Of a stretch of 32,748 bases of DNA, positions 3,589 through 32,748 are shown in pieces. Numbering within the stretch: the stretch's first letter is position 1; the number at the start of each line of letters is the position of its first letter. The notes under the pieces are model-generated. The model did no database searches and was not told where the DNA came from. It saw only the letters and a list, made by a program, of their open reading frames with translations. Source of the stretch: a virus (taxonomy: Duplodnaviria; Caudoviricetes); IMG/VR virus record IMGVR_UViG_3300044723_001797, positions 1-32,748 of that record, one strand, 5' to 3'. Both the position numbers and the translations under genes were made by a program.

Positions 3589-3787
3589 TGGTCTTTACTC
3601 CTTGTTTGATCACAGGCCAGTGAATGTTATTCAACTGTATAAACCTGTTAAGAACTTGCAACGTCACTCCTAATTCTGCTGCTGCTTCTGTTTGGGTAAT
3701 ACGGCTACGAGCAAGTGCCTCAACTTGCTCGATACGTTCACGCTTTTGGCGTTCCCGCAAACCGTACCATTTAGAATGGGATGGCAT
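3545..3787 (-). CDS. HTH DNA-binding protein
   Basis: TQTEAAAELGVTLQVLNRF HTH; start moved to ATG 3787, which overlaps the end of the SSB gene. Confidence 0.7.
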   Translation of the reverse strand: MPSHSKWYGLRERQKRERIEQVEALARSRITQTEAAAELGVTLQVLNRFIQLNNIHWPVIKQGVKTNGSDQRNIHNKCGV

Positions 3788-4301
3788 CGTCCAACTTTTC
3801 TTCTGCTGCTGGCGCACCAGTTTTCTCTGAGATTTGCAGAGACATATAGTTGTTGCCATCTTTCTCACGCTTCCAACCTGCGATACGCATGTTCTTGTTG
3901 GTTGCGTAATCTTCTACTGGCCCTGCGTAATCAGGCCGTGCAGGGTTGTCGCCTTTATCTTCTTCGAACAAGACTGCAACCTTCTGGTACACCTCGACCA
4001 GACGCTTACCGTTTTTGGTTTCATCTGCCACCAAGACAACCTTGCGATCATTACCTTCGATGTTCATCTTGCCTTGCAAGATCATACGCATAGTATCGAA
4101 TGGCTTGAACGCTGCGCCTGAGTTAGTGTTATCATAATCTGCCATGCTTCTGGCTCCTGTATTAAAGTGTTTCTGTGCAGCCCTTAGTCTACTGTGGTGA
4201 CTTCTGGACTTGTCCTTTCTGTGACCACAAGATTGCCCTGCCTTGGCTGCACACTTCGGGCAGGGAACCTGTTGAACCATTTCCTGAGTGACAGTTACCA
4301 T
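3771..4301 (-). CDS. ssDNA-binding protein (DUF736-like) with in-frame N-terminal zinc finger; internal start at 4145
   Basis: NPARPDYAG, IAGW, YMSLQISE and acidic DDAIPF tail; CPKC..C..H N-terminus; GGAG before ATG 4145. Confidence 0.8.
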   Translation of the reverse strand: MVTVTQEMVQQVPCPKCAAKAGQSCGHRKDKSRSHHSRLRAAQKHFNTGARSMADYDNTNSGAAFKPFDTMRMILQGKMNIEGNDRKVVLVADETKNGKRLVEVYQKVAVLFEEDKGDNPARPDYAGPVEDYATNKNMRIAGWKREKDGNNYMSLQISEKTGAPAAEEKLDDAIPF

Positions 4302-4747
4302 CCGCCTTTGGGCTGACCACTATCAGCGGCGTACTTGTTACCGTCCATTTCACCAAGGAACACATCAGCATTACATCCAATGTGCGACAGTGCTTTGGTC
4401 AAGCCATCGGTCACTGCCATCTTTGGTGCGTCTTCGTTCATGCGATTCTTTGCCATATCGTAGAACTTACGACAGCCAGTAAACGGCCCGAACGCATGTT
4501 GATTATCTGTGTGCCACACTGTGACATGTGCAAATACTGCCATGTCACCATTGGCTGTGGTCACAGTTTCTACTGTGGAATCCCAACCCCAACCCAAACC
4601 GATTGGCCCAAAGTGTTCAGTCATCATCCGCACTTGATACTGTGGATCAATGGCTGTAAATGAGCGCGAACCAAAGCTCACTTTCTTTAAATATTTCGGG
4701 TCTGATTTGGACAGTGAATTCCATATTGCTAAGTTTTCTTTTGACAT
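4295..4747 (-). CDS. Rad52/Sak-like single-strand annealing protein
   Basis: TEHFGPIGLGWG and EDAPKMAVTDGLTKALSHIG..ADVF motifs; lies between exonuclease and SSB. Confidence 0.82.
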   Translation of the reverse strand: MSKENLAIWNSLSKSDPKYLKKVSFGSRSFTAIDPQYQVRMMTEHFGPIGLGWGWDSTVETVTTANGDMAVFAHVTVWHTDNQHAFGPFTGCRKFYDMAKNRMNEDAPKMAVTDGLTKALSHIGCNADVFLGEMDGNKYAADSGQPKGGW

Positions 4748-4762
4748 CTTATATCTCCTTTA

Positions 4763-5536
4763 TTAGATGCGTTTAGTTATTCTAAGACTGCCGCGCTTAT
4801 CGCGCTTGATGGTTAAGTATTCGCAGAACACCTCACGTTCATCGTCACCAACCATATTCTTCAGGTCTTTCTTTGTACGCTCATGTATCTTTGCCGCTTC
4901 CATGTGATTGATGTAATCGGCTGACAAGCTTACAAAATGATTGTCTTGCGATGCATCACGCACCACCATGTTATCAATTGGTATGCTTGCTATGTCTACC
5001 TTGGGTACATCAAAGCCAATAGGTTCACGATCCTCGACAACGTGTCGCCAAAAATCACCAATGACCGCTAGCATATTGACAATGTAGTTGGTGTCTTTCT
5101 GGACATGTACGCTTTCCCACTTGCTGTTACCAAAGATGACAGAGAGGTAAGCACCATGCGTTGCGTTGGCTAACCACATGTAAAGCTGTAGCTGTGGCAT
5201 GTATCGTTCTATCACACCATCCATATCATTAAATGCATTGGTGTGCTTTGCTTCAACAACAGCATCATCTAGCATTGCATCCAGTGTACCTTTGATTGGT
5301 ATGCCACTGTCAGTGTTGCGCTCAATCTCAAACTGATGATTGCGCAGCACAACATTACGCTCTTGCTCGAACCACTTGAGATTAAAATCTTCTGTGTGGA
5401 TACCCATCTGTACGGCTAGGTTGCGGCTCAAATCTTCGGGCTGTGTGCGCCCTGTTTTGATGCACCATAGGTCGTACCATTCTCCTCGCATGATGGCAGT
5501 TGCATCACTGCCACCGATAAAGCCTTGTCTGTTCAT
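4763..5536 (-). CDS. YqaJ/lambda-exonuclease-like recombination nuclease
   Basis: RQGFIGGSD, GTLD...EAKH, YMPQLQLYM motifs. Confidence 0.92.
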   Translation of the reverse strand: MNRQGFIGGSDATAIMRGEWYDLWCIKTGRTQPEDLSRNLAVQMGIHTEDFNLKWFEQERNVVLRNHQFEIERNTDSGIPIKGTLDAMLDDAVVEAKHTNAFNDMDGVIERYMPQLQLYMWLANATHGAYLSVIFGNSKWESVHVQKDTNYIVNMLAVIGDFWRHVVEDREPIGFDVPKVDIASIPIDNMVVRDASQDNHFVSLSADYINHMEAAKIHERTKKDLKNMVGDDEREVFCEYLTIKRDKRGSLRITKRI

Positions 5537-5567: not shown

Positions 5568-6050
5568 TCATTTGTTTATAGGTGCAAGATATTTTGCAAA
5601 GTCTTCGTCAGAAACTATGCCAGTATCTATCACCTGTTGTCGCCACCTTGAGTTGGGATCAAGTAAATAGTCAGGGATTGGCTCACCACGCAACACACGC
5701 CGTGCATAAATGATGTCAGTCTTGTCGGCTGCGTAGTTTACAGTGACATTGGGAACTGCAATCGCACGACTGTAATCTTTCACAGCTTCAATGGTTGCAT
5801 TGATAAATGTCTTGATCGAAGGCCACGCTCGCGCTCCATGGTTGGCGCGGACGTGTCCATCGACCTTGATAAGAGTTTGATCAAGATCAACTTGCTCGAA
5901 CTGAGATGGTATCTTGTTGTTAATGTCATTAACAATAAGCTGCATCTCCTCTCGTAGAGTTTCATCATCCATCCCTGCGGGTGGTGTGTAACGCTTAAGA
6001 AGTTTTACTAACCATGTACCAATGGTACGCTGTCGATCTTCTAATTTCAT
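5568..6050 (-). CDS. Hypothetical protein, possibly helicase-loader-like
   Basis: ATGA-coupled to the initiator (lambda P position); RAWPSIKTF motif; function inferred from position. Confidence 0.55.
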   Translation of the reverse strand: MKLEDRQRTIGTWLVKLLKRYTPPAGMDDETLREEMQLIVNDINNKIPSQFEQVDLDQTLIKVDGHVRANHGARAWPSIKTFINATIEAVKDYSRAIAVPNVTVNYAADKTDIIYARRVLRGEPIPDYLLDPNSRWRQQVIDTGIVSDEDFAKYLAPINK

Positions 6051-6712
6051 GACTTATCCTCTATTTGCCCTGGCATATCCCACACTAAGATTTCTTTCAG
6101 ACGATCTGTGTTTGTCGTTGCCTGTGGTGCAACGTCATCGATGTCATCATCCCAACGCTCACCGTTAAGCCACGTTGTCGGGTGCGGAATATATTGTTTT
6201 TCCTTCCCCTCGACTGCGGCTGCAAACTTCTTGACAGCATCAATGATTGTATGTGGTTTTTCTTTGCTGCAAGCTTTCTTGAAAGCCAGACGCGCATGAC
6301 CCTTGGCAACTTTTCTTGGGTACAAATCCCAGAACTCGTCGAAGGGTAGTGTCTGTGTGACACCCGAAGGTAATATATATTCTTCTAAGTTAATTATATT
6401 ATTACCTTTGTGTGTCTGTGTGACACTAGTTTGCTTTACCATTGGTTCCTCCTTAACAATTGTGAATTGATATAAGCTTGGGCGACCCTTGCCGCCCGAG
6501 TATCTTTCAATGATCTGATGTTCTACACACCAGTTCAACGCACGAATAACGGATGATCTGGACATGCACCCAAGCTTGGTCAACCGTTCGATGCTTGGGT
6601 AGCATGTCCCAGATGATCCAGTATGATCCGCTAAGATACATAAAATTAGCTTAATTTGTGCGTTAGGTACTTGCCAATGCAGTACTTCACGTAGTAATAA
6701 TTCATTATACAA
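6047..6712 (-). CDS. Phage replication initiator with N-terminal winged HTH
   Basis: KLILCILADH...CYPSIERL...SRSSVIRAL and C-terminal FDEFWDLYPRK...HPTTWLNGERWDD; TTG start with GAGG 7 nt upstream. Confidence 0.85.
   Translation of the reverse strand: MYNELLLREVLHWQVPNAQIKLILCILADHTGSSGTCYPSIERLTKLGCMSRSSVIRALNWCVEHQIIERYSGGKGRPSLYQFTIVKEEPMVKQTSVTQTHKGNNIINLEEYILPSGVTQTLPFDEFWDLYPRKVAKGHARLAFKKACSKEKPHTIIDAVKKFAAAVEGKEKQYIPHPTTWLNGERWDDDIDDVAPQATTNTDRLKEILVWDMPGQIEDKS
6349..6426. promoter_or_regulatory. Putative replication origin inside the initiator gene
   Basis: Two identical GTGTCTGTGTGACAC (6349-6363, 6412-6426) flanking an AT-rich core. Confidence 0.7.
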
Positions 6713-9145: not shown

Positions 9146-9346
9146 CTATGTGTGAACTTCGATAGTAAATTCTATCTCGCCACCCATCATCTCTTTCACA
9201 ATGTCTTTGATGCTTTCGATTTGAGATTCAGTGAACTGTCCCTCTTCATCAATCACATTTTGTTCGTTTAACTTTCGCGCATCAAGCTCACTAATAACTT
9301 CTTGCTTGATGATTGTGCGTAACGCTTCAACTAATTTATCTGACAT
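9146..9346 (-). CDS. Small acidic hypothetical protein
   Basis: GGAGG before ATG 9346. Confidence 0.7.
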   Translation of the reverse strand: MSDKLVEALRTIIKQEVISELDARKLNEQNVIDEEGQFTESQIESIKDIVKEMMGGEIEFTIEVHT

Positions 9347-9480
9347 TTGTTCCTCCATGATTCAGATTCATCGGTAATTAAATAGCGATCTACTTACCGA
9401 CACACACGCGACTAAACCCGCCGAGTGTTAAAAGCTCTAACCTTTAACCACTCGTTACGAATCAGTGCGCAACTAGTAAG

Positions 9481-9550
9481 GGGGTCAAGGGAATCATTCC
9501 CTTGTGGGTCAAGGGCAAAGCCCTTGTGGGGTGTGGGGCGAAGCCCCACG
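9481..9550 (+). repeat. Three tandem perfect GC-rich hairpins with 3-nt loops
   Basis: CAAGGGAA-TCA-TTCCCTTG, CAAGGGC-AAA-GCCCTTG, GTGGGGC-GAA-GCCCCAC. Confidence 0.85.
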
Positions 9551-9587
9551 AAAAAATTTGAGGGCAGCCAAGGCCACCCTCATTTTT
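9551..9587 (-). terminator. Intrinsic terminator after the 190-aa gene
   Basis: TGAGGGTGGC-CTTG-GCTGCCCTCA (G-U pairs on -) followed by AATTTTTT. Confidence 0.75.
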
Positions 9588-9604
9588 CCTATGTTTGTTA
9601 GTTA

Positions 9605-10177
9605 TTACTTACGCGCTTCGGCTAGTTTCGCCTTACGCGCTTCGCGGTCTTGCTTCGTCGCTTTTTTGGCAGACGTTTCCGCTCGTGCGTTTGTCTCTTG
9701 CGGCATCCAAGGGATATATTCGCGACCGCTCACTGCCTCGTACATCTGACCAAACGCTGATATAAATGCCTCAAGGGTGATCTTTGCGTGTTTGCGCTCA
9801 AGCTCGTATGCCAACGCTTCGTCAACATTCTTGCCCGCGATCTCTGTACCATCGTCAAGCTTATCTGCGGCATTGGTGCGCTCTTTCGCTTCGGCATACT
9901 GTGCCTGAACGCCAAGGGCAACTTCCTGATTGTTGCGGTTGATCCATGTGCGCTGCGTGTGAAGCTTGCGATATGCTACATCTGCAATCCCTTTCAGGAT
10001 CATACCCTGTTCGCTCCACAAAGTGTTGCGTCCAGTGTCGTCGGTTTCTGTTAGGAACGCGCCAACCATTGCCGCCAGTTGCATTGCTGACACTGATCCA
10101 TTGTGCGCGTCTTCCAATGCGCGCTCTGCTTGTGTTAGTTCTTTTGCTTGTTCCGCTTTGAATGTGGTCATAGACAT
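9605..10177 (-). CDS. 190-aa helical protein, first gene of the early arm
   Basis: AGGAG before ATG 10177; the upstream 55 codons of the tracked ORF run through structured DNA. Confidence 0.8.
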   Translation of the reverse strand: MSMTTFKAEQAKELTQAERALEDAHNGSVSAMQLAAMVGAFLTETDDTGRNTLWSEQGMILKGIADVAYRKLHTQRTWINRNNQEVALGVQAQYAEAKERTNAADKLDDGTEIAGKNVDEALAYELERKHAKITLEAFISAFGQMYEAVSGREYIPWMPQETNARAETSAKKATKQDREARKAKLAEARK

Positions 10178-10285
10178 TTGATATACTCCTATAATAGTCT
10201 TGTTTTCATACATTCGTGACATACCCAATTCTGGGTACTTACTTGATTTAGTACTCACCACCCACGCCATTTGTTTGGGGCGTAA

Positions 10286-10403
10286 GTGCCTCGGTGAGTA
10301 AGCCACCAGACGCTCAGGCATGGTTCCAGAGTCAATACGCAACTACGTCCGTGTTGACTCTGGGTTCTGCCTGACGCGACGCAGGGGTGTCTCTCCGAGG
10401 CAC
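10286..10403. other. Long imperfect hairpin (Frpo/ssi-like element or ncRNA)
   Basis: Nested stems 10286-10294/10395-10403, 10314-10320/10368-10374, 10326-10339/10350-10363. Confidence 0.65.
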
Positions 10404-10563
10404 GCGACGTTCCTAACAAATACAACTCACAACTATTACTCATTATCCCGCCATAGGGGGTCACAGGGGGACAGGGCAATGTCCCCCTCGCGTCAGGGAT
10501 GGAAGCCCGCAAGGGCCAAGACCTGAAGGGGCTTGGTTCACGACAGCCCGCTCGGACGCCCAA

Positions 10564-10599
10564 TTGTGCGTTGACAAAGGGTATAATAACGATGCTATC
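10564..10599 (+). promoter_or_regulatory. Putative late promoter, copy 1 (upstream of terS)
   Basis: TTGTGCGTTG-N20-GCTA; includes TTGACA. Confidence 0.65.
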
Positions 10600-10640
10600 A
10601 ATGGGGGGAGAGAGGGAGAGGGGGGCTAACGGAGACACAT

Positions 10641-11018
10641 ATGAACAACGTAGCAACACGAAAACTAACCCCAAAGCAAATAGCATTGGTTGATGTGATG
10701 GTAGCAGAAGGGCTGAACACAAGCCAAGCTGCGATCCGTGCAGGGTACGCCGAGGGCAAAGCTGGATACGTAACCGCACACAAAGCACTGAAACAACCAC
10801 ATGTGCAACAGTATATGATGCAACGGATTCAAGAGAGCCTTGGAGTCAATGCTACTCTAGCCGCAGCGCGTGTGATGCAGCTTGCGCAGGGGGCAAGATC
10901 AGAGCACGTTCAGCTGGAAGCCGCCAAGGATATTCTAGACAGAGCGGGGTTCAAACCGATAGATCGATCGCAGGTGCAAGTTGCTGGGGACATCAAGGTG
11001 AGCATTGACTTGGGATAG
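10641..11018 (+). CDS. terS: Terminase small subunit
   Basis: LTPKQ...SQAAIRAGY HTH and AAKDILDRAG motif; GGAG RBS. Confidence 0.85.
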   Translation: MNNVATRKLTPKQIALVDVMVAEGLNTSQAAIRAGYAEGKAGYVTAHKALKQPHVQQYMMQRIQESLGVNATLAAARVMQLAQGARSEHVQLEAAKDILDRAGFKPIDRSQVQVAGDIKVSIDLG

Positions 11019-29000: not shown

Positions 29001-29636
29001 TTGGCTATGTCTGGTAAAACATATCTTCCTATGCATATCGCAAGCACATTAGGCATGAAAGAAAGCAAACGTGTTAAGGGTTATGCCGAGATTGAGCATC
29101 CAATGCTTGCGCTGCCGTTTACATTTTATACTTACACTGTGGGCGCATTGAACAAAGTAACAACCAACTATGCGCAGGGTGCGGTTCGCAATCCAGCAGT
29201 ACACTTTGCGGTAGCCATGTTCCTTGGATATAACATTGTTAAGTTCCGTACACCAGAGTTTGCTTGGAATGAAATGGACATAGAAGATAAGATTCTTCGT
29301 GCATTTGATTTTTCTGGACTAGCTGCGCTTTACAGTGACATGTTTTATCGATCACTAGAAATGGGTATGGCGTTTGATATTGAGAACCCATTGCCATTCC
29401 AACCTAAGTTTACAGAAGACCCTGATACAGTAGGGGGTGTTATTTCTGTTTTTGGCGCACCTGCTGACTATGCCTATGGTTTTGTAAAAAGTGGCAGAGA
29501 GTTTGCGCGTGGCGAATACGGTGATGGAACAGAAACATTTGTTCGTCAAATACCGCTAGTTTGGAACATGTTTATTAAAGAACAGATGAATGGAATCAAG
29601 AATGCGTTGGGTGACTTCGCTAGAACCTTTGAGTAA
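26070..29636 (+). CDS. Large internal virion protein, gp16-like
   Basis: 1188 aa; NFFPRYFD and LHRALDIP motifs, hydrophobic C-terminal region; position before fibre. Confidence 0.75.
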   Translation: MTDPILQTPPLEPFSRKTPEIVRNTPTYPETIQAQLEEYFAAPVSSTLAEARGLPERDIGFNITQYLSDRGIDPLSPEGKRISIYGLNESSAERMYQLHLQSIKNQEIIEKAGFAKALAADPLFLAEIAFTGGVLATARRGGREFLEQSLTGALRARRAESLAVKGFRIANAEAAFFEGTSNVLRLANDLEGQTEADQAILSATISQLTAQGIASTLGYGIGRVADRKLKSPQLESVATSYQTSVNNLRELAEAIDAKPKKTNEVVMADALPEVNDEDLLLTGEWFTNSIFYRALPTPVKAVMGVSSKATKDVKLRFMRLVNDAGVMFKLNQINKSFGKSVHQEAGELSGRWGSVYNQIHEIWGEVSPSGNYNVADMQISDTIEHIKKIRGKESLTFEDFGRHVTDLYINNKTPQTDAESRAVEILRSYFDEWDKMLNDVGLLGGTGTLVRRQGNIQDRIGSMENVFDDIITSNRNFLEEQITKLDGFIETMNKTQKARGLTDAQIARREQLIADKTKLATALERTGSIRNINDAIRMIDDLAVTPKQKSAIQKLDAHITEMKDRLDNVNAYLDGTAVQKGLRENFFPRYFDRRKIAANRETFEQILTDHYMEQPFVWGWDEKTKRYVRTMLDPDRASAQRRAKRTTDEILELVDDDGMEGLAYFGAGRSKHLLHRALDIPNGKVQDFMVTDLKQVLVAYNEKMAPKYAFARQFRTDTGAPATIDDVIAQNTREMQKAGVSQAEINRINKEFIGSYDRIVGRVLTKPDGVTSRMAQWLQTAAQWTYLGGAGVAAVADFSNIFMDHEMKTIAKGLAALADDNSVTMAKKELQKAGDGMEVISGTYQMKFMESLSSDPFRSGLTDKINTGFYKFNLLSQMTTIAKTMDGMFRTHTIIEAAEAVGNGSGTKFQKEFLARYNIDQAMAKRIAKQPFEKTKNNFIVGNTDAWTDEEALSAFRSALRTGVMNRIIMGTPADKPLAMSGKTYLPMHIASTLGMKESKRVKGYAEIEHPMLALPFTFYTYTVGALNKVTTNYAQGAVRNPAVHFAVAMFLGYNIVKFRTPEFAWNEMDIEDKILRAFDFSGLAALYSDMFYRSLEMGMAFDIENPLPFQPKFTEDPDTVGGVISVFGAPADYAYGFVKSGREFARGEYGDGTETFVRQIPLVWNMFIKEQMNGIKNALGDFARTFE

Positions 29637-29670
29637 TTGTGCGTTGTTTGGTGTATCTTTCTTAGCTATG
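29637..29670 (+). promoter_or_regulatory. Putative late promoter, copy 4 (tail fibre operon)
   Basis: TTGTGCGTTG-N18-GCTA in the intergenic gap. Confidence 0.65.
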
Positions 29671-29692
29671 CCAGTAAAAAAAGAGGTAAGCT

Positions 29693-32600
29693 ATGACGAT
29701 TAACCTTTCAGATAATAATCCTCGTGTATCCTATAGCGTTGCACAAGGTGTTACGCAGTCTTCATTTACTGTATCATTTGAATTTTTTGATGATGATGAT
29801 CTTAACGTATATGTTGATGGTACTCTTAAAACTTTAACTACAGATTATACGGTAACTGGTGGTGATGGTTCTACTGGTACAGTTACAATGTCAGTTACAG
29901 GGGCTACTGGCGGCTCTACTGTTGTTATTACAAGAGACATTGACTTAGAGCGCACAACGGATTTTCCATCTTCTGGGCCATTTAATATTGGTTCTTTAAA
30001 TACAGAACTTGATCGAATTATAGCTATTACTGCTGATTTAGAAGATCTTGCTGGTCGTGGTGTAAAGCTTGCTGACTTTGATACACAAGCTGCGCTTACT
30101 CTACCTTTAGCTTCTGAACGTGGAAATAAAGTGTTAGCATTTAATGCTGCTGGGGACACTTTGGTTAGCCAAGAGCTAGGCACGTTTAAAGGCGATTGGG
30201 CAGCATCAACTGCGTATGTTGAGCGTGACTTAGTTAAAGATACAACAACAAACAATGTGTTTATTGTTACTTCTGCTCACACATCATCGGGTTCTTTGCC
30301 GCTCACAACAAATACGAATAGTGCCAAGTATGAAAAAATAATTGATATTACCAACCCCCCTGGCGATGTTACGTTTGGCGGCAGTATAACAACATCAAGT
30401 TCTGTAACGGCTGGCAGCTTTGTTATTGGCTCTGCTGATATTAACGAAAACGACTTAGAAGCGATTGACAGCGTTACTGCTGGGACAGTTGCAGCAAGTA
30501 AGGCAGTTGTTGTTGATGTTAACAAAGACATCTCTAGCTTTAGAAACTTAACTGCTACTGGTGACATTACGTTTGGCGGTTTGTCAGATGGCACGATCAC
30601 GGTTACAGCGTTTGTTGATGAAGATAATATGGCATCTGATAGTGCTACGCTGGTGCCTACACAGCAGTCTGTGAAAGCATATGTAGATGCTCAAGTTGCT
30701 ACGGCAGACACACTCACTGAAATTCTAGGTAACGGCAACACCACAAGTGGCGCAAACATCCAGATGACTACAACGGATGAGCTACAATTTAGAGATACAG
30801 CATTGAAAATTAGTTCATCTGCTGATGGGCAGTTAGATATTGATGCTGACACTGAAGTTGAGATTACTGCGCCCACTGTTGATATTAATGCCAGCACAGA
30901 AGTAAACATTAGTGGTGCAGCAAAAATTGGTGGCACCTTAAATATTGATACAATTAATGAGTTAACCACAGACGCTGGAACTACAATCAATTCAACTTTT
31001 ATTGGTAACAATAAGATTGGCATTGGTACAAGTGTTGTAGGCGACACTCAAGTAGCAATTAAAGGTTCTGCTGCTAAATTAAGACTAGAATCTCTAACTG
31101 CTGGAAATCACAATTGGGATATTGGTGTTTCTACAACAAGCCTTCGCATTTACCACCAAGCAACAGGTCAAAACCCTTTTTGGATTGACTCAACTGATAA
31201 TGTTGGCATTGGAACTATAAGCCCATCCACTAAGCTAGATGTAAATGGCACTGTCACGGCAACAGGTGGTGCGTTTACTGGCGATGTATCCTTCGGCGAC
31301 AACGACAAAGCCATCTTCGGCGCAGGGTCTGACCTACAGATTTACCATGATGGGTCTGCGAGTTATATTGATGATCAGGGTGAAGGCCCGCTCAAAATAA
31401 AAGCAACAGACTTTAGAATTAAAAATGCTGCTGATACAAAAAATTATTTAAGAGCAGATGATGGTGGAGCTGTTTCTGTTTACTATGACAACGCCCAAAA
31501 ACTCGCCACCACCAGCACAGGCGTAGACATCACGGGTACTTTGACCAGCGATGGGCTGACTGTGGATGGGAATGTTTCTGTAGGCTCAACAGGTGCTTCA
31601 GATCGTCAAATATATATGGGTTCTGTAGGAAATCTTTATGGTGCTTTAAATACGGATGGCGCTTCAGGTAATTTTAATATTACTTCTGGACATGCAACTA
31701 CTGGCGGTACAGCGTTACAGTTCTATACCGCAAATTCTGGCAGTGAAATACGAAGAACTAGAATTGACACCAACGGCGACATCAGCTTCTACGAGGACAC
31801 AGGCACCACGCCAAAGTTTATCTGGGATGCGAGTGCTGAGAGTTTGGGGATTGGGACGAGTTCGCCTAGCCATACAATCAGTTTGGAAAGCGCTTATCCA
31901 TACATATCGTTTAACGAAACCGATCAAAGCCAAAAGTGGGTTATTGGTGGGGCATCTGGAAACTTTGTTATTTATGATGATACTGATGCAGCAACAAGAC
32001 TTGCTGTAGACGGATCAGGTAATGTGGGCATTGGGACGACTTCGCCTCAACAAGATGTACATGTTCAAAGTACTGGTTCAGCTACTGTTATGGCTGAGAG
32101 AACAGGTCCAAATGCTGGCCTTATAGGTATTTACGGATCAAATAACCCTGCTCTTGTATGGGGTGGCAATACAGATGTTCTAAGGTTTGCTCAAGTTGAT
32201 GATACTTCCCTGACTAACTTTACAGAACGTATGCGCATTGACAGCAGCGGTAACTTGCTGGTGGGTAAGACGAGTGCAACTAATTTTGGCAGTACAGCGG
32301 GATTTGAGGTTCTTAGTGATGGACGCATACTGTCAACAGTATCTGGGGATCAGGCTCTTGCACTTTCTCGCACTTCATCAGACGGATATATTGCAGAGTT
32401 CTACAAAGACACCACCTTTGTGGGGAGTATTAATTCACGAGGTGGCGTTGTATCAAGTATTGTTCTTGATCCTCGAACTGGTGGAGGCGGTTTAGGGGCA
32501 ACAGGGCCAGGGTCTTTATGTGCTACAAACAACACTGGTGCCTCAACTACTGATAACGTACTAGACTTAGGCCACAGCGGTGCAAGGTGGAAAGACGTAT

Positions 32601-32748
32601 ATGTTGGTGGCGGTGTCTACCTCGGCGGCACTGGGTCGGCTAATAAGCTGGATGACTATGAGGAGGGGACTTGGACGCCTGCTATAACTGGCGCATCAAC
32701 CAACCCAAGCGTAACATATACCAATGCTTTTGGAGTATACGTTAAAAC
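29693..32748 (+). CDS. Tail fibre protein (>1018 aa, 3' truncated; absent from ORF track)
   Basis: GAGG + ATG 29693; T7 gp17-like N-terminus (FEFFDDDDLNVYVDG..TDYTV..LNTELD), repeated GIGT.SP units, ends in LDDYEEGTWTP...; no stop found on manual reading. Confidence 0.92.
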   Translation, partial: MTINLSDNNPRVSYSVAQGVTQSSFTVSFEFFDDDDLNVYVDGTLKTLTTDYTVTGGDGSTGTVTMSVTGATGGSTVVITRDIDLERTTDFPSSGPFNIGSLNTELDRIIAITADLEDLAGRGVKLADFDTQAALTLPLASERGNKVLAFNAAGDTLVSQELGTFKGDWAASTAYVERDLVKDTTTNNVFIVTSAHTSSGSLPLTTNTNSAKYEKIIDITNPPGDVTFGGSITTSSSVTAGSFVIGSADINENDLEAIDSVTAGTVAASKAVVVDVNKDISSFRNLTATGDITFGGLSDGTITVTAFVDEDNMASDSATLVPTQQSVKAYVDAQVATADTLTEILGNGNTTSGANIQMTTTDELQFRDTALKISSSADGQLDIDADTEVEITAPTVDINASTEVNISGAAKIGGTLNIDTINELTTDAGTTINSTFIGNNKIGIGTSVVGDTQVAIKGSAAKLRLESLTAGNHNWDIGVSTTSLRIYHQATGQNPFWIDSTDNVGIGTISPSTKLDVNGTVTATGGAFTGDVSFGDNDKAIFGAGSDLQIYHDGSASYIDDQGEGPLKIKATDFRIKNAADTKNYLRADDGGAVSVYYDNAQKLATTSTGVDITGTLTSDGLTVDGNVSVGSTGASDRQIYMGSVGNLYGALNTDGASGNFNITSGHATTGGTALQFYTANSGSEIRRTRIDTNGDISFYEDTGTTPKFIWDASAESLGIGTSSPSHTISLESAYPYISFNETDQSQKWVIGGASGNFVIYDDTDAATRLAVDGSGNVGIGTTSPQQDVHVQSTGSATVMAERTGPNAGLIGIYGSNNPALVWGGNTDVLRFAQVDDTSLTNFTERMRIDSSGNLLVGKTSATNFGSTAGFEVLSDGRILSTVSGDQALALSRTSSDGYIAEFYKDTTFVGSINSRGGVVSSIVLDPRTGGGGLGATGPGSLCATNNTGASTTDNVLDLGHSGARWKDVYVGGGVYLGGTGSANKLDDYEEGTWTPAITGASTNPSVTYTNAFGVYVK

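What the first reader, a model, noticed from the sequence alone, without database searches (positions are those of the whole stretch)
9481..10561. Plasmid leading-region-like ssDNA cassette at the head of the phage early arm
Seen: one monocistronic 190-aa gene with its own RBS and terminator, bracketed by three triloop hairpins (9486-9549), a 118-nt hairpin (10286-10403) and a branched element (10465-10561). The stable loops (GCGAAGC, GCAAAGC, GCAA) and a G-T pair all read best on the + strand, which is the template strand for this gene. Known: conjugative plasmids use folded ssDNA promoters (Frpo) and ssi priming signals to express leading-region anti-defence genes before second-strand synthesis. 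Inference: this dsDNA podophage may expose the + strand here as ssDNA (entry, resection by its exonuclease, or rolling-circle replication) and use it to fire a first gene and prime DNA synthesis. The genome encodes no recognisable primase.
Basis: partly seen in the sequence, partly recalled or inferred. Interest (0 to 1): 0.85.

Follow-up and report, generated by a model that had tools for sequence, protein, structure and literature searches.

The report
Plasmid-style single-strand promoter in phage
In front of its first early gene, this marine double-stranded DNA phage and its relatives carry a conserved fold-back and a branched element also found before anti-restriction genes of conjugative elements; these likely work only when that strand is single-stranded, which would mean the phage starts infection the way an incoming plasmid does.

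Summary
The hairpins, 190-aa gene, RBS and terminator are real. The branched element (10484-10561) matches non-coding DNA in about 3,900 plasmids. In bacterial genomes it lies about 265 nt before ardC, ardA or ssb on their template strand, as here (320 nt), and it is on the coding strand of a microvirus. This scan had already noted that element in another phage. Relatives keep one fast-evolving first-gene family behind a fold-back whose 3' arm holds a paired -35-like hexamer (31 of 44), in one class followed after 17-18 nt by a CATGAC-type -10 that is mismatched to the template arm. Stems covary, and G-T pairs favour the + strand. This is Frpo-like architecture without Frpo sequence. Against: the window's own -10 is poor, loop types show no strand bias across relatives, the triple hairpin is not conserved, lacking a primase proves little, and nothing shows that the strand is single-stranded. 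Best reading: an ssDNA promoter plus an ssDNA (probably priming) signal near the genome end (0.55). New variant of a known kind.

The parts
9486..9549 (+). Element A: three triloop hairpins; resembles non-coding DNA of small plasmids; only the last hairpin recurs in relatives
9551..9582 (-). Intrinsic-terminator-like hairpin and T run of the first gene
   Evidence: similar hairpins after the first gene in many relatives, by eye
9605..10177 (-). First early gene, 190 aa, predicted helical hairpin, fast-evolving family without a known function
10186..10190 (-). Ribosome-binding site AGGAG, 8 nt before the ATG
   Evidence: sequence
10269..10421 (+). Element B: long fold-back, candidate ssDNA promoter; 5' arm would be the template, 3' arm the non-template strand
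10354..10359 (+). -35-like hexamer TTGACT in the 3' arm, fully paired with 10330-10335
10377..10383 (+). -10 position (17-18 nt spacer) in a poorly paired loop; aligns without gaps to CATGAC/TATGAC of relatives but is itself a poor match
10466..10487 (+). Small G-rich triloop hairpin before element C
10484..10561 (+). Element C: branched, covarying element shared with conjugative leading regions, microviruses and other tailed phages; candidate ssDNA priming signal
10571..10599 (+). Probable ordinary sigma70 promoter of terS (TTGACA, 17 nt, GCTATC)
   Evidence: TTGAC at this place in 71 of 71 relatives
10603..10625 (+). Conserved double G tract before terS; possible packaging or end signal (untested)
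   Evidence: 71 of 71 relatives
10641..11018 (+). Terminase small subunit, head of the late arm
   Evidence: PF03592, phrog_51
3771..5536 (-). SSB-like gene, phrog_7838 gene and YqaJ/RecE-like exonuclease: a possible source and handler of ssDNA
6047..6712 (-). Replication initiation protein (phrog_270); no helicase, primase or polymerase detected

Best explanation
The region is a conserved, swappable cassette at the early/late junction of a marine podophage that likely acts when the + strand is single-stranded: the long fold-back would present a -35 and a mismatched -10 to host sigma70 RNA polymerase and so transcribe the first gene, and the branched element would likely let host proteins prime the missing strand. 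Shown: the anatomy, covariation, G-T polarity, homology of element C to conjugative leading regions and a microvirus, and the same spacing as C-hairpin-ardC units. Inferred: promoter activity (about 0.6), priming by C (about 0.5), and that the ssDNA is a 3' overhang made by resection of a genome end near terS soon after entry (about 0.35; otherwise it arises in rolling-circle or recombination intermediates). Copying the strand would switch the promoter off, giving a short pulse of the first protein, which is probably a counter-defence or host-takeover factor (position only, about 0.4).
For: Element C: 3,893 plasmid records, 2,952 of them conjugative. The two examples read lie among ardA, psiB, DUF905 and DUF4942, just 3' of Frpo-like units on the genes' template strand. 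In 80 bacterial loci the nearest 5' gene is on the opposite strand in 50 of 64 with a called gene; 32 of those 50 are ArdC 22, SSB 4, ArdA 3, methylase 2, ParB 1; median distance 265 nt in 30 loci against 320 in the window. C is on the coding strand of microvirus MH572438. C pairs: 94.6% of cells, 10 of 17 pairs compensatory. B upper stem: 97.4% of cells paired, 6 of 21 pairs compensatory, 26 of 189 cells G-T, which pair on + only (9 sequences, about 6 types). TTG[AC] ranks first of 384 motifs in paired 3' arms (31 of 44 loci, median 4). Eleven distinct variants have a 17-18 nt spacer before CATGA(A/C) or TATGAC, under different apical stems. An A lies 19-21 nt after the hexamer in 32 of 39 3' arms but 15 of 39 dsDNA minus-strand readings. 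None of the five -35-like hexamers on the minus strand between terS and the gene has a convincing -10. 59 of 59 relatives with enough DNA have a 127-230 aa gene in this slot.
Against: The window's own -10 position reads CGACGC/GACGCA, not CATGAC. Loop types give no strand bias across relatives, and the fold-energy bias (28 of 41 loci) is confounded by base skew, since a terS control gives 41 of 41. About 8 of the 39 hits pair unrelated elements (my inspection), the loci fall into about five related classes, and the -10 is unclear in several classes. C is upstream of terS on + in only 15 of 41 loci, and lies on the opposite strand in L130/L132 and relative to the early arm in L114/L131/L158. 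The triple hairpin occurs only in the window and its near-twin. The cultured relative Hodr has a 180-nt fold-back but fails my -35 rule. The -35 and -10 are contiguous on +, so they could also be an ordinary rightward promoter. No genome end is mapped and no ssDNA is shown.
Confidence: 0.55

Rival explanations
1. The -35/-10 in the 3' arm is an ordinary dsDNA promoter reading rightward, and B and/or C work as structured RNA (an antisense RNA, a 6S-like polymerase decoy or a terS leader).
For: The boxes are contiguous on + with 17-18 nt spacing; RNA folding is as strong as DNA folding (z -7.6); loop types do not prove DNA across relatives.
Against: The 5' arm lies upstream of such a promoter, would not be in its transcript, yet covaries with it. 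No terminator-like site follows C. C occurs without this hairpin after the terS stop on the other strand and in microviruses. No Rfam family matches.
Confidence: 0.15
2. The hairpins extrude as cruciforms from supercoiled dsDNA, as N4 early promoters do, with no long ssDNA needed.
For: N4 uses supercoil-extruded template hairpins at the first-injected end (PMC4496689, passages). Element A has perfect stems with triloops.
Against: B is long and full of bulges and G-T pairs, which should cost too much for extrusion (own knowledge). No polymerase motif was found in the three largest virion-module proteins tested, and no polymerase family among 54 ORFs.
Confidence: 0.1
3. The fold-back is a 5' leader or attenuator of the minus-strand mRNA made from a conventional upstream promoter.
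For: The minus strand also folds (z -5.3 DNA, -6.7 RNA). Many relatives have a minus-strand TTGACA next to C (by eye).
Against: G-T pairs become A-C mismatches on the minus strand. The window lacks that upstream hexamer and has no good minus-strand promoter.
Confidence: 0.1
4. The elements are packaging, end-processing or recombination signals, or plasmid-derived relics that only mark module-swap boundaries.
For: They lie beside terS and a G tract conserved in 71 of 71 relatives. C is a hub in metagenome assemblies, and a close strain appears to carry another cassette between 9310 and 10490.
Against: Compensatory changes and fixed -35/-10 spacing imply selection; the geometry matches C-hairpin-ardC units.
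Confidence: 0.1

Closest known systems
[quoted passage not shown]
   Same: Long imperfect fold-back on the template strand just upstream of a first gene, with -35 and -10 in the 3' arm. Element C flanks such units in plasmids and appears at the 3' ends of Frpo* 2, 6 and 7 in the supplement of PMC11541004 (by eye).
   Different: No sequence similarity of B to class 1 units. It lies in a tailed dsDNA phage with no oriT or relaxase detected. Classes 2 and 3 were not compared directly. Activity is untested.
ssi signals and complementary-strand origins of ssDNA phages and plasmids
   Same: C is a covarying branched element on the coding strand of a microvirus and on the template strand of plasmid leading genes.
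   Different: C does not match, by eye, the five named Frpo/ssi sequences listed. Its priming protein is unknown, and two searches found no paper on it.
Single-strand origin regions of small MOBV plasmids (pTX14-2, pBSDMV9, pRGI00763)
   Same: Element A matches non-coding hairpin runs 130-200 nt before mobV on the mob sense strand. That these plasmids use rolling-circle replication and have an sso there is recalled.
   Different: Matches are 22-50 nt with E from 4e-5 to 0.8; two E. coli hits are in the opposite orientation to their HTH gene; A is not conserved in phage relatives.
N4 virion-RNA-polymerase hairpin promoters
   Same: Template-strand DNA hairpin driving the earliest gene of a dsDNA phage.
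   Different: N4 uses short extruded hairpins read by its own polymerase; here the hairpin is 150 nt with sigma70-type boxes and no polymerase gene was found.
Pelagibacter phage EXVC031P Hodr (cultured; TerL 63%) and Methylophilales phage MEP301 (TerL 42%)
   Same: Hodr has the same divergent terS/first-gene layout, a homologous first gene (E 5.6e-8 in a 61-sequence set) and a long fold-back.
   Different: Hodr's intergenic region shows no element C by eye, and its fold-back reaches the start codon. MEP301 has another layout.

Membership tests
Frpo class 1 ssDNA promoter | Sequence homology to Frpo/ssi1-3 | tested here: not met
   Profiles of five phage hairpin classes gave no hit in L002/L003, which hold Frpo-like units, nor in 80 bacterial loci; listed plasmid hits cover only element C
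ssDNA promoter (any class) | Long imperfect fold-back on the template strand directly upstream of a first gene | tested here: met
ssDNA promoter (any class) | -35 box rebuilt as duplex in the 3' arm | tested here: met
   31 of 44 loci, top of 384 motifs
ssDNA promoter (any class) | -10 box at promoter spacing in a mismatched zone | tested here: inconclusive
   Met in 11 variants; poor in the window's own copy and unclear in other classes
ssDNA promoter (any class) | Active on ssDNA, silent on dsDNA | not testable with these tools
   needs in vitro transcription
Conjugative leading region | Follows an oriT and is transferred as ssDNA by a relaxase | tested here: not met
   Virus record with virion genes; no relaxase among 54 ORFs
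Conjugative leading region | First gene is anti-defence | tested here: inconclusive
   No family or fold match
ssi / complementary-strand origin (element C) | Lies on the strand that is single-stranded in known ssDNA contexts | tested here: met
   Microvirus coding strand; template strand of ardC/ardA/ssb
ssi / complementary-strand origin (element C) | Rescues an origin-less M13 or primes in vitro | not testable with these tools
   bench assay
sso of rolling-circle plasmids (element A) | Conserved oriented hairpin array | tested here: inconclusive
   Short plasmid matches; not conserved in phage relatives
N4-type hairpin promoter | Phage virion RNA polymerase | tested here: not met
Rfam RNA families | Match at gathering score | tested here: not met
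   Best E 2.2 over 9300-10700

The most novel reading that the evidence does not exclude
Abundant marine tailed dsDNA phages have true plasmid-type leading regions. A genome end near terS enters or is turned into a 3' single-stranded overhang, folds into sigma70 ssDNA promoters that fire a fast-evolving counter-defence gene exactly when host nucleases attack the incoming DNA, and is then re-primed at a signal shared with conjugative elements and microviruses. The same logic recurs in several unrelated podophage lineages.
Probability: 0.33. Interest if true: 0.9.

Novelty: new variant of a known kind. Interest (0 to 1): 0.72.

Why it matters
Host-polymerase ssDNA promoters are described from conjugative elements in the papers read; two searches (listings only) showed none for a tailed dsDNA phage. 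If real, tailed phages expose and use ssDNA at the start of infection, which would tie gene expression to DNA-end processing and point to a new family of first-expressed proteins (117 cluster representatives). A cultured relative (Hodr) and 150-nt synthetic oligonucleotides make it directly testable. Element C also gives a candidate for the unknown priming signal of plasmid leading regions.

Tried and rejected
Rfam: nothing. Loop-type and energy strand tests failed or were confounded. Contig ends: 11 of 80 within 500 nt upstream of terS against 4 of 80 downstream, not usable as a terminus map because C is an assembly hub. Sequencing runs: no RNA holder listed, which is no evidence either way. 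First-gene function: no Pfam, PHROG, PDB-sequence, Atlas or fold match beyond uncharacterised phage proteins and generic helical hairpins; the protein is not strongly acidic (pI 6.0), so an Ocr-like DNA mimic is unlikely. No homolog in plasmids, in annotated phages with one member as query, or in the 80 bacterial loci; a pattern scan of genomes with the broad alignment was not possible. The F plasmid record was not in the collection, so published Frpo sequences came from a supplement. The 'phage' hit to element A (MT839842) looks like a bacterial scaffold and was set aside. My paired -35 rule fits only 3 of 33 bacterial hairpins, though 17 of 30 have a TTGAYG in the 3' arm. The HNH-like gene of a second lineage matched only one uncultured phage record. 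No paper on Hodr was found.

Full report
Setting. The window is a 97% complete, linear virus record with a T7-like virion module, terS and terL on the + strand and an early arm on the - strand. That arm holds a replication initiator, a YqaJ exonuclease, an SSB-like gene and a resolvase; no polymerase, helicase or primase was found among 54 ORFs. The closest annotated terL is that of Pelagibacter phage Hodr (63%). The finding lies at the point where the two arms diverge.

Observation. All described parts exist. The long hairpin B extends to 10269-10421 (DNA z -7.4 on +, -5.3 on -) and is the most stable stretch among 815 + strand windows. The three small hairpins A are perfect stems with the same energy on both strands. 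Element C is weak by energy alone. Rfam has no match.

Element C. A search with 10262-10570 hit 3,893 plasmid records, 2,952 conjugative; the 30 rows listed cover only 10484-10561, at 82%. C alone hit 3,854. In the two plasmids read, C lies among ardA, psiB, DUF905 and DUF4942, with the nearby genes on the opposite strand, just 3' of an Frpo-like unit (compared by eye with Supplementary Table 2 of PMC11541004, read whole). A pattern scan of bacterial genomes stopped at 122 stretches, of which 80 were read. The nearest 5' gene is on the opposite strand in 50 of 64 loci with a called gene, and 32 of those 50 are ArdC, SSB, ArdA, methylase or ParB. In the 30 such loci measured, C lies a median 265 nt from the start codon, and the loci folded show a hairpin in between; the window has 320 nt. 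C is also on the coding strand of a microvirus intergenic region. Its structure holds in 20 sequences: 94.6% of cells paired, 10 of 17 pairs compensatory, 0 of 500 shuffles as high on covariation (related sequences inflate this). Its first side loop is mostly GNA or GNNA on +, types I recall as stable in DNA. Of 52 viral stretches with C, 17 belong to this lineage. Many others, judged by eye from flanking ORFs, are microvirus-like (L116, L160, L163) or other tailed phages where C again sits at the junction of divergent arms.

First gene. Of 588 terS relatives, 80 were kept. All 59 with enough upstream DNA have a 127-230 aa gene with a strong RBS in the same slot. A profile links 46 of 61 slot proteins at E < 1e-3, including Hodr gp22; many of the top hits were in the training set, and 15 short ones only align by eye. 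The profile finds 117 representatives among 1.84 billion proteins. The model is a helical hairpin (pLDDT 82) with matches only to uncharacterised phage proteins and generic coiled coils. Function rests on position and fast divergence alone.

Hairpin B as a promoter. The 41 non-redundant loci mostly show a long fold-back just upstream of the first gene, in about five sequence classes (part of the output was cut and 11 loci were reprinted). In the window's class (19 contigs) the 3' arm reads TTGACA or TTTACC, 17 nt, then CATGAC or TATGAC, and the window aligns without gaps as TTGACT, 17 nt, CGACGC. The upper stem pairs in 97.4% of cells, 6 of 21 pairs are compensatory and 26 of 189 cells are G-T, which pair only on +. 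In the relatives the A at -11 faces a G of the template arm (by eye). Eleven distinct variants keep a 17-18 nt spacer under different apical stems; five further rows with 19-20 nt lie outside the cassette. Over 44 loci, TTG[AC] is the commonest of 384 motifs in paired 3' arms (31 loci, median 4). A looser rule hit 39 of 44 against 114 of 880 shuffles, 11 of 41 gene controls and 7 of 41 terS controls, with about 8 false pairings. Read as dsDNA, the minus strand keeps the -35 but usually lacks an A at the -11 position (15 of 39 against 32 of 39), and in one class a side hairpin is inserted in the spacer. This matches the description of Frpo and classes 1-3 (PMC9849209, PMC12672017, PMC11541004; passages), without sequence similarity to class 1. 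Other phage lineages with C show similar paired hexamers before their first gene (L115, L137, L139, L164; by eye).

Results against. The window's -10 is poor; its B looks like a hybrid of an L085-type upper stem and an L014-type lower stem (by eye). Loop types show no strand bias and the energy bias is confounded. Element A is found only in the window and its near-twin, though its last hairpin plus A/T run recurs in 10 of 41 loci. Its plasmid matches are short: 40 mostly small plasmids, three read lying before mobV and two in the other orientation. C is upstream of terS in only 15 of 41 loci and can lie on the other strand (L130, L132). Hodr fails the -35 rule. Lack of a primase is shared with HTVC010P-type phages (PMC10504331, passages).

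How ssDNA could arise (inference). If packaging starts near terS and runs rightward, as I recall for P22, the cassette lies near the right end of the genome, where 5'-to-3' resection would leave the + strand as the 3' overhang. A copy of C on the - strand just after terS in L130/L132 would fit the other end. Ends are not mapped: MEP301 is only known to be permuted or redundant (PMC8024684, passages), and contig ends are confounded. Rolling-circle or recombination intermediates could supply the same strand later.

Verdict. The cassette works most plausibly like a plasmid leading-region unit (gene, folded promoter, ssDNA signal) but is not a member of Frpo class 1 or of a conjugative leading region. 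Searches for such a unit in tailed phages and for the C sequence showed nothing in their listings; most subscription papers are not in that library, and the supplement of PMC12672017 was not read. New variant of a known kind; interest 0.72.

Noticed in passing
window 10603-10625 and L005-L084: A double G tract 21-26 nt after the terS -35 is present in 71 of 71 relatives; candidate packaging, end or origin signal.
   Followed up: partly
L005-L084, 60-330 nt upstream of terS: A GTGACG-N3-CGTCAC-like palindrome occurs in 44 of 71 relatives but not in the window; possible operator.
   Followed up: no
L132:1201-1252 and L130: Element C lies on the minus strand right after the terS stop, while the + strand hairpin precedes the first gene; the two face away from terS.
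   Followed up: partly
L112:971-1064 and 1437-1526 (Sphingopyxis phage VSN-002): Two copies of element C in opposite orientation in a cultured phage.
   Followed up: no
L104:12196-12376 (Hodr): A 180-nt fold-back whose far arm mirrors the RBS and start codon of the first gene.
   Followed up: partly
window 9310-10490, run X6: Two near-identical contigs stop at 9309 and start at 10490 with another upstream sequence, suggesting the whole cassette is swapped in a close strain; not shown to be one genome.
   Followed up: partly
L167-L243: A recurring hairpin family with TTGACG near its base sits between element C and ardC or ardA in alphaproteobacterial genomes.
   Followed up: partly
L118, L119, L135, L139, L164: A second marine phage lineage has C between its first early gene and an 84-aa basic HNH-like gene.
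   Followed up: partly
window 29636-32748: An open reading frame of over 1,000 aa, tail-fibre-like by eye, runs off the right end.
   Followed up: no
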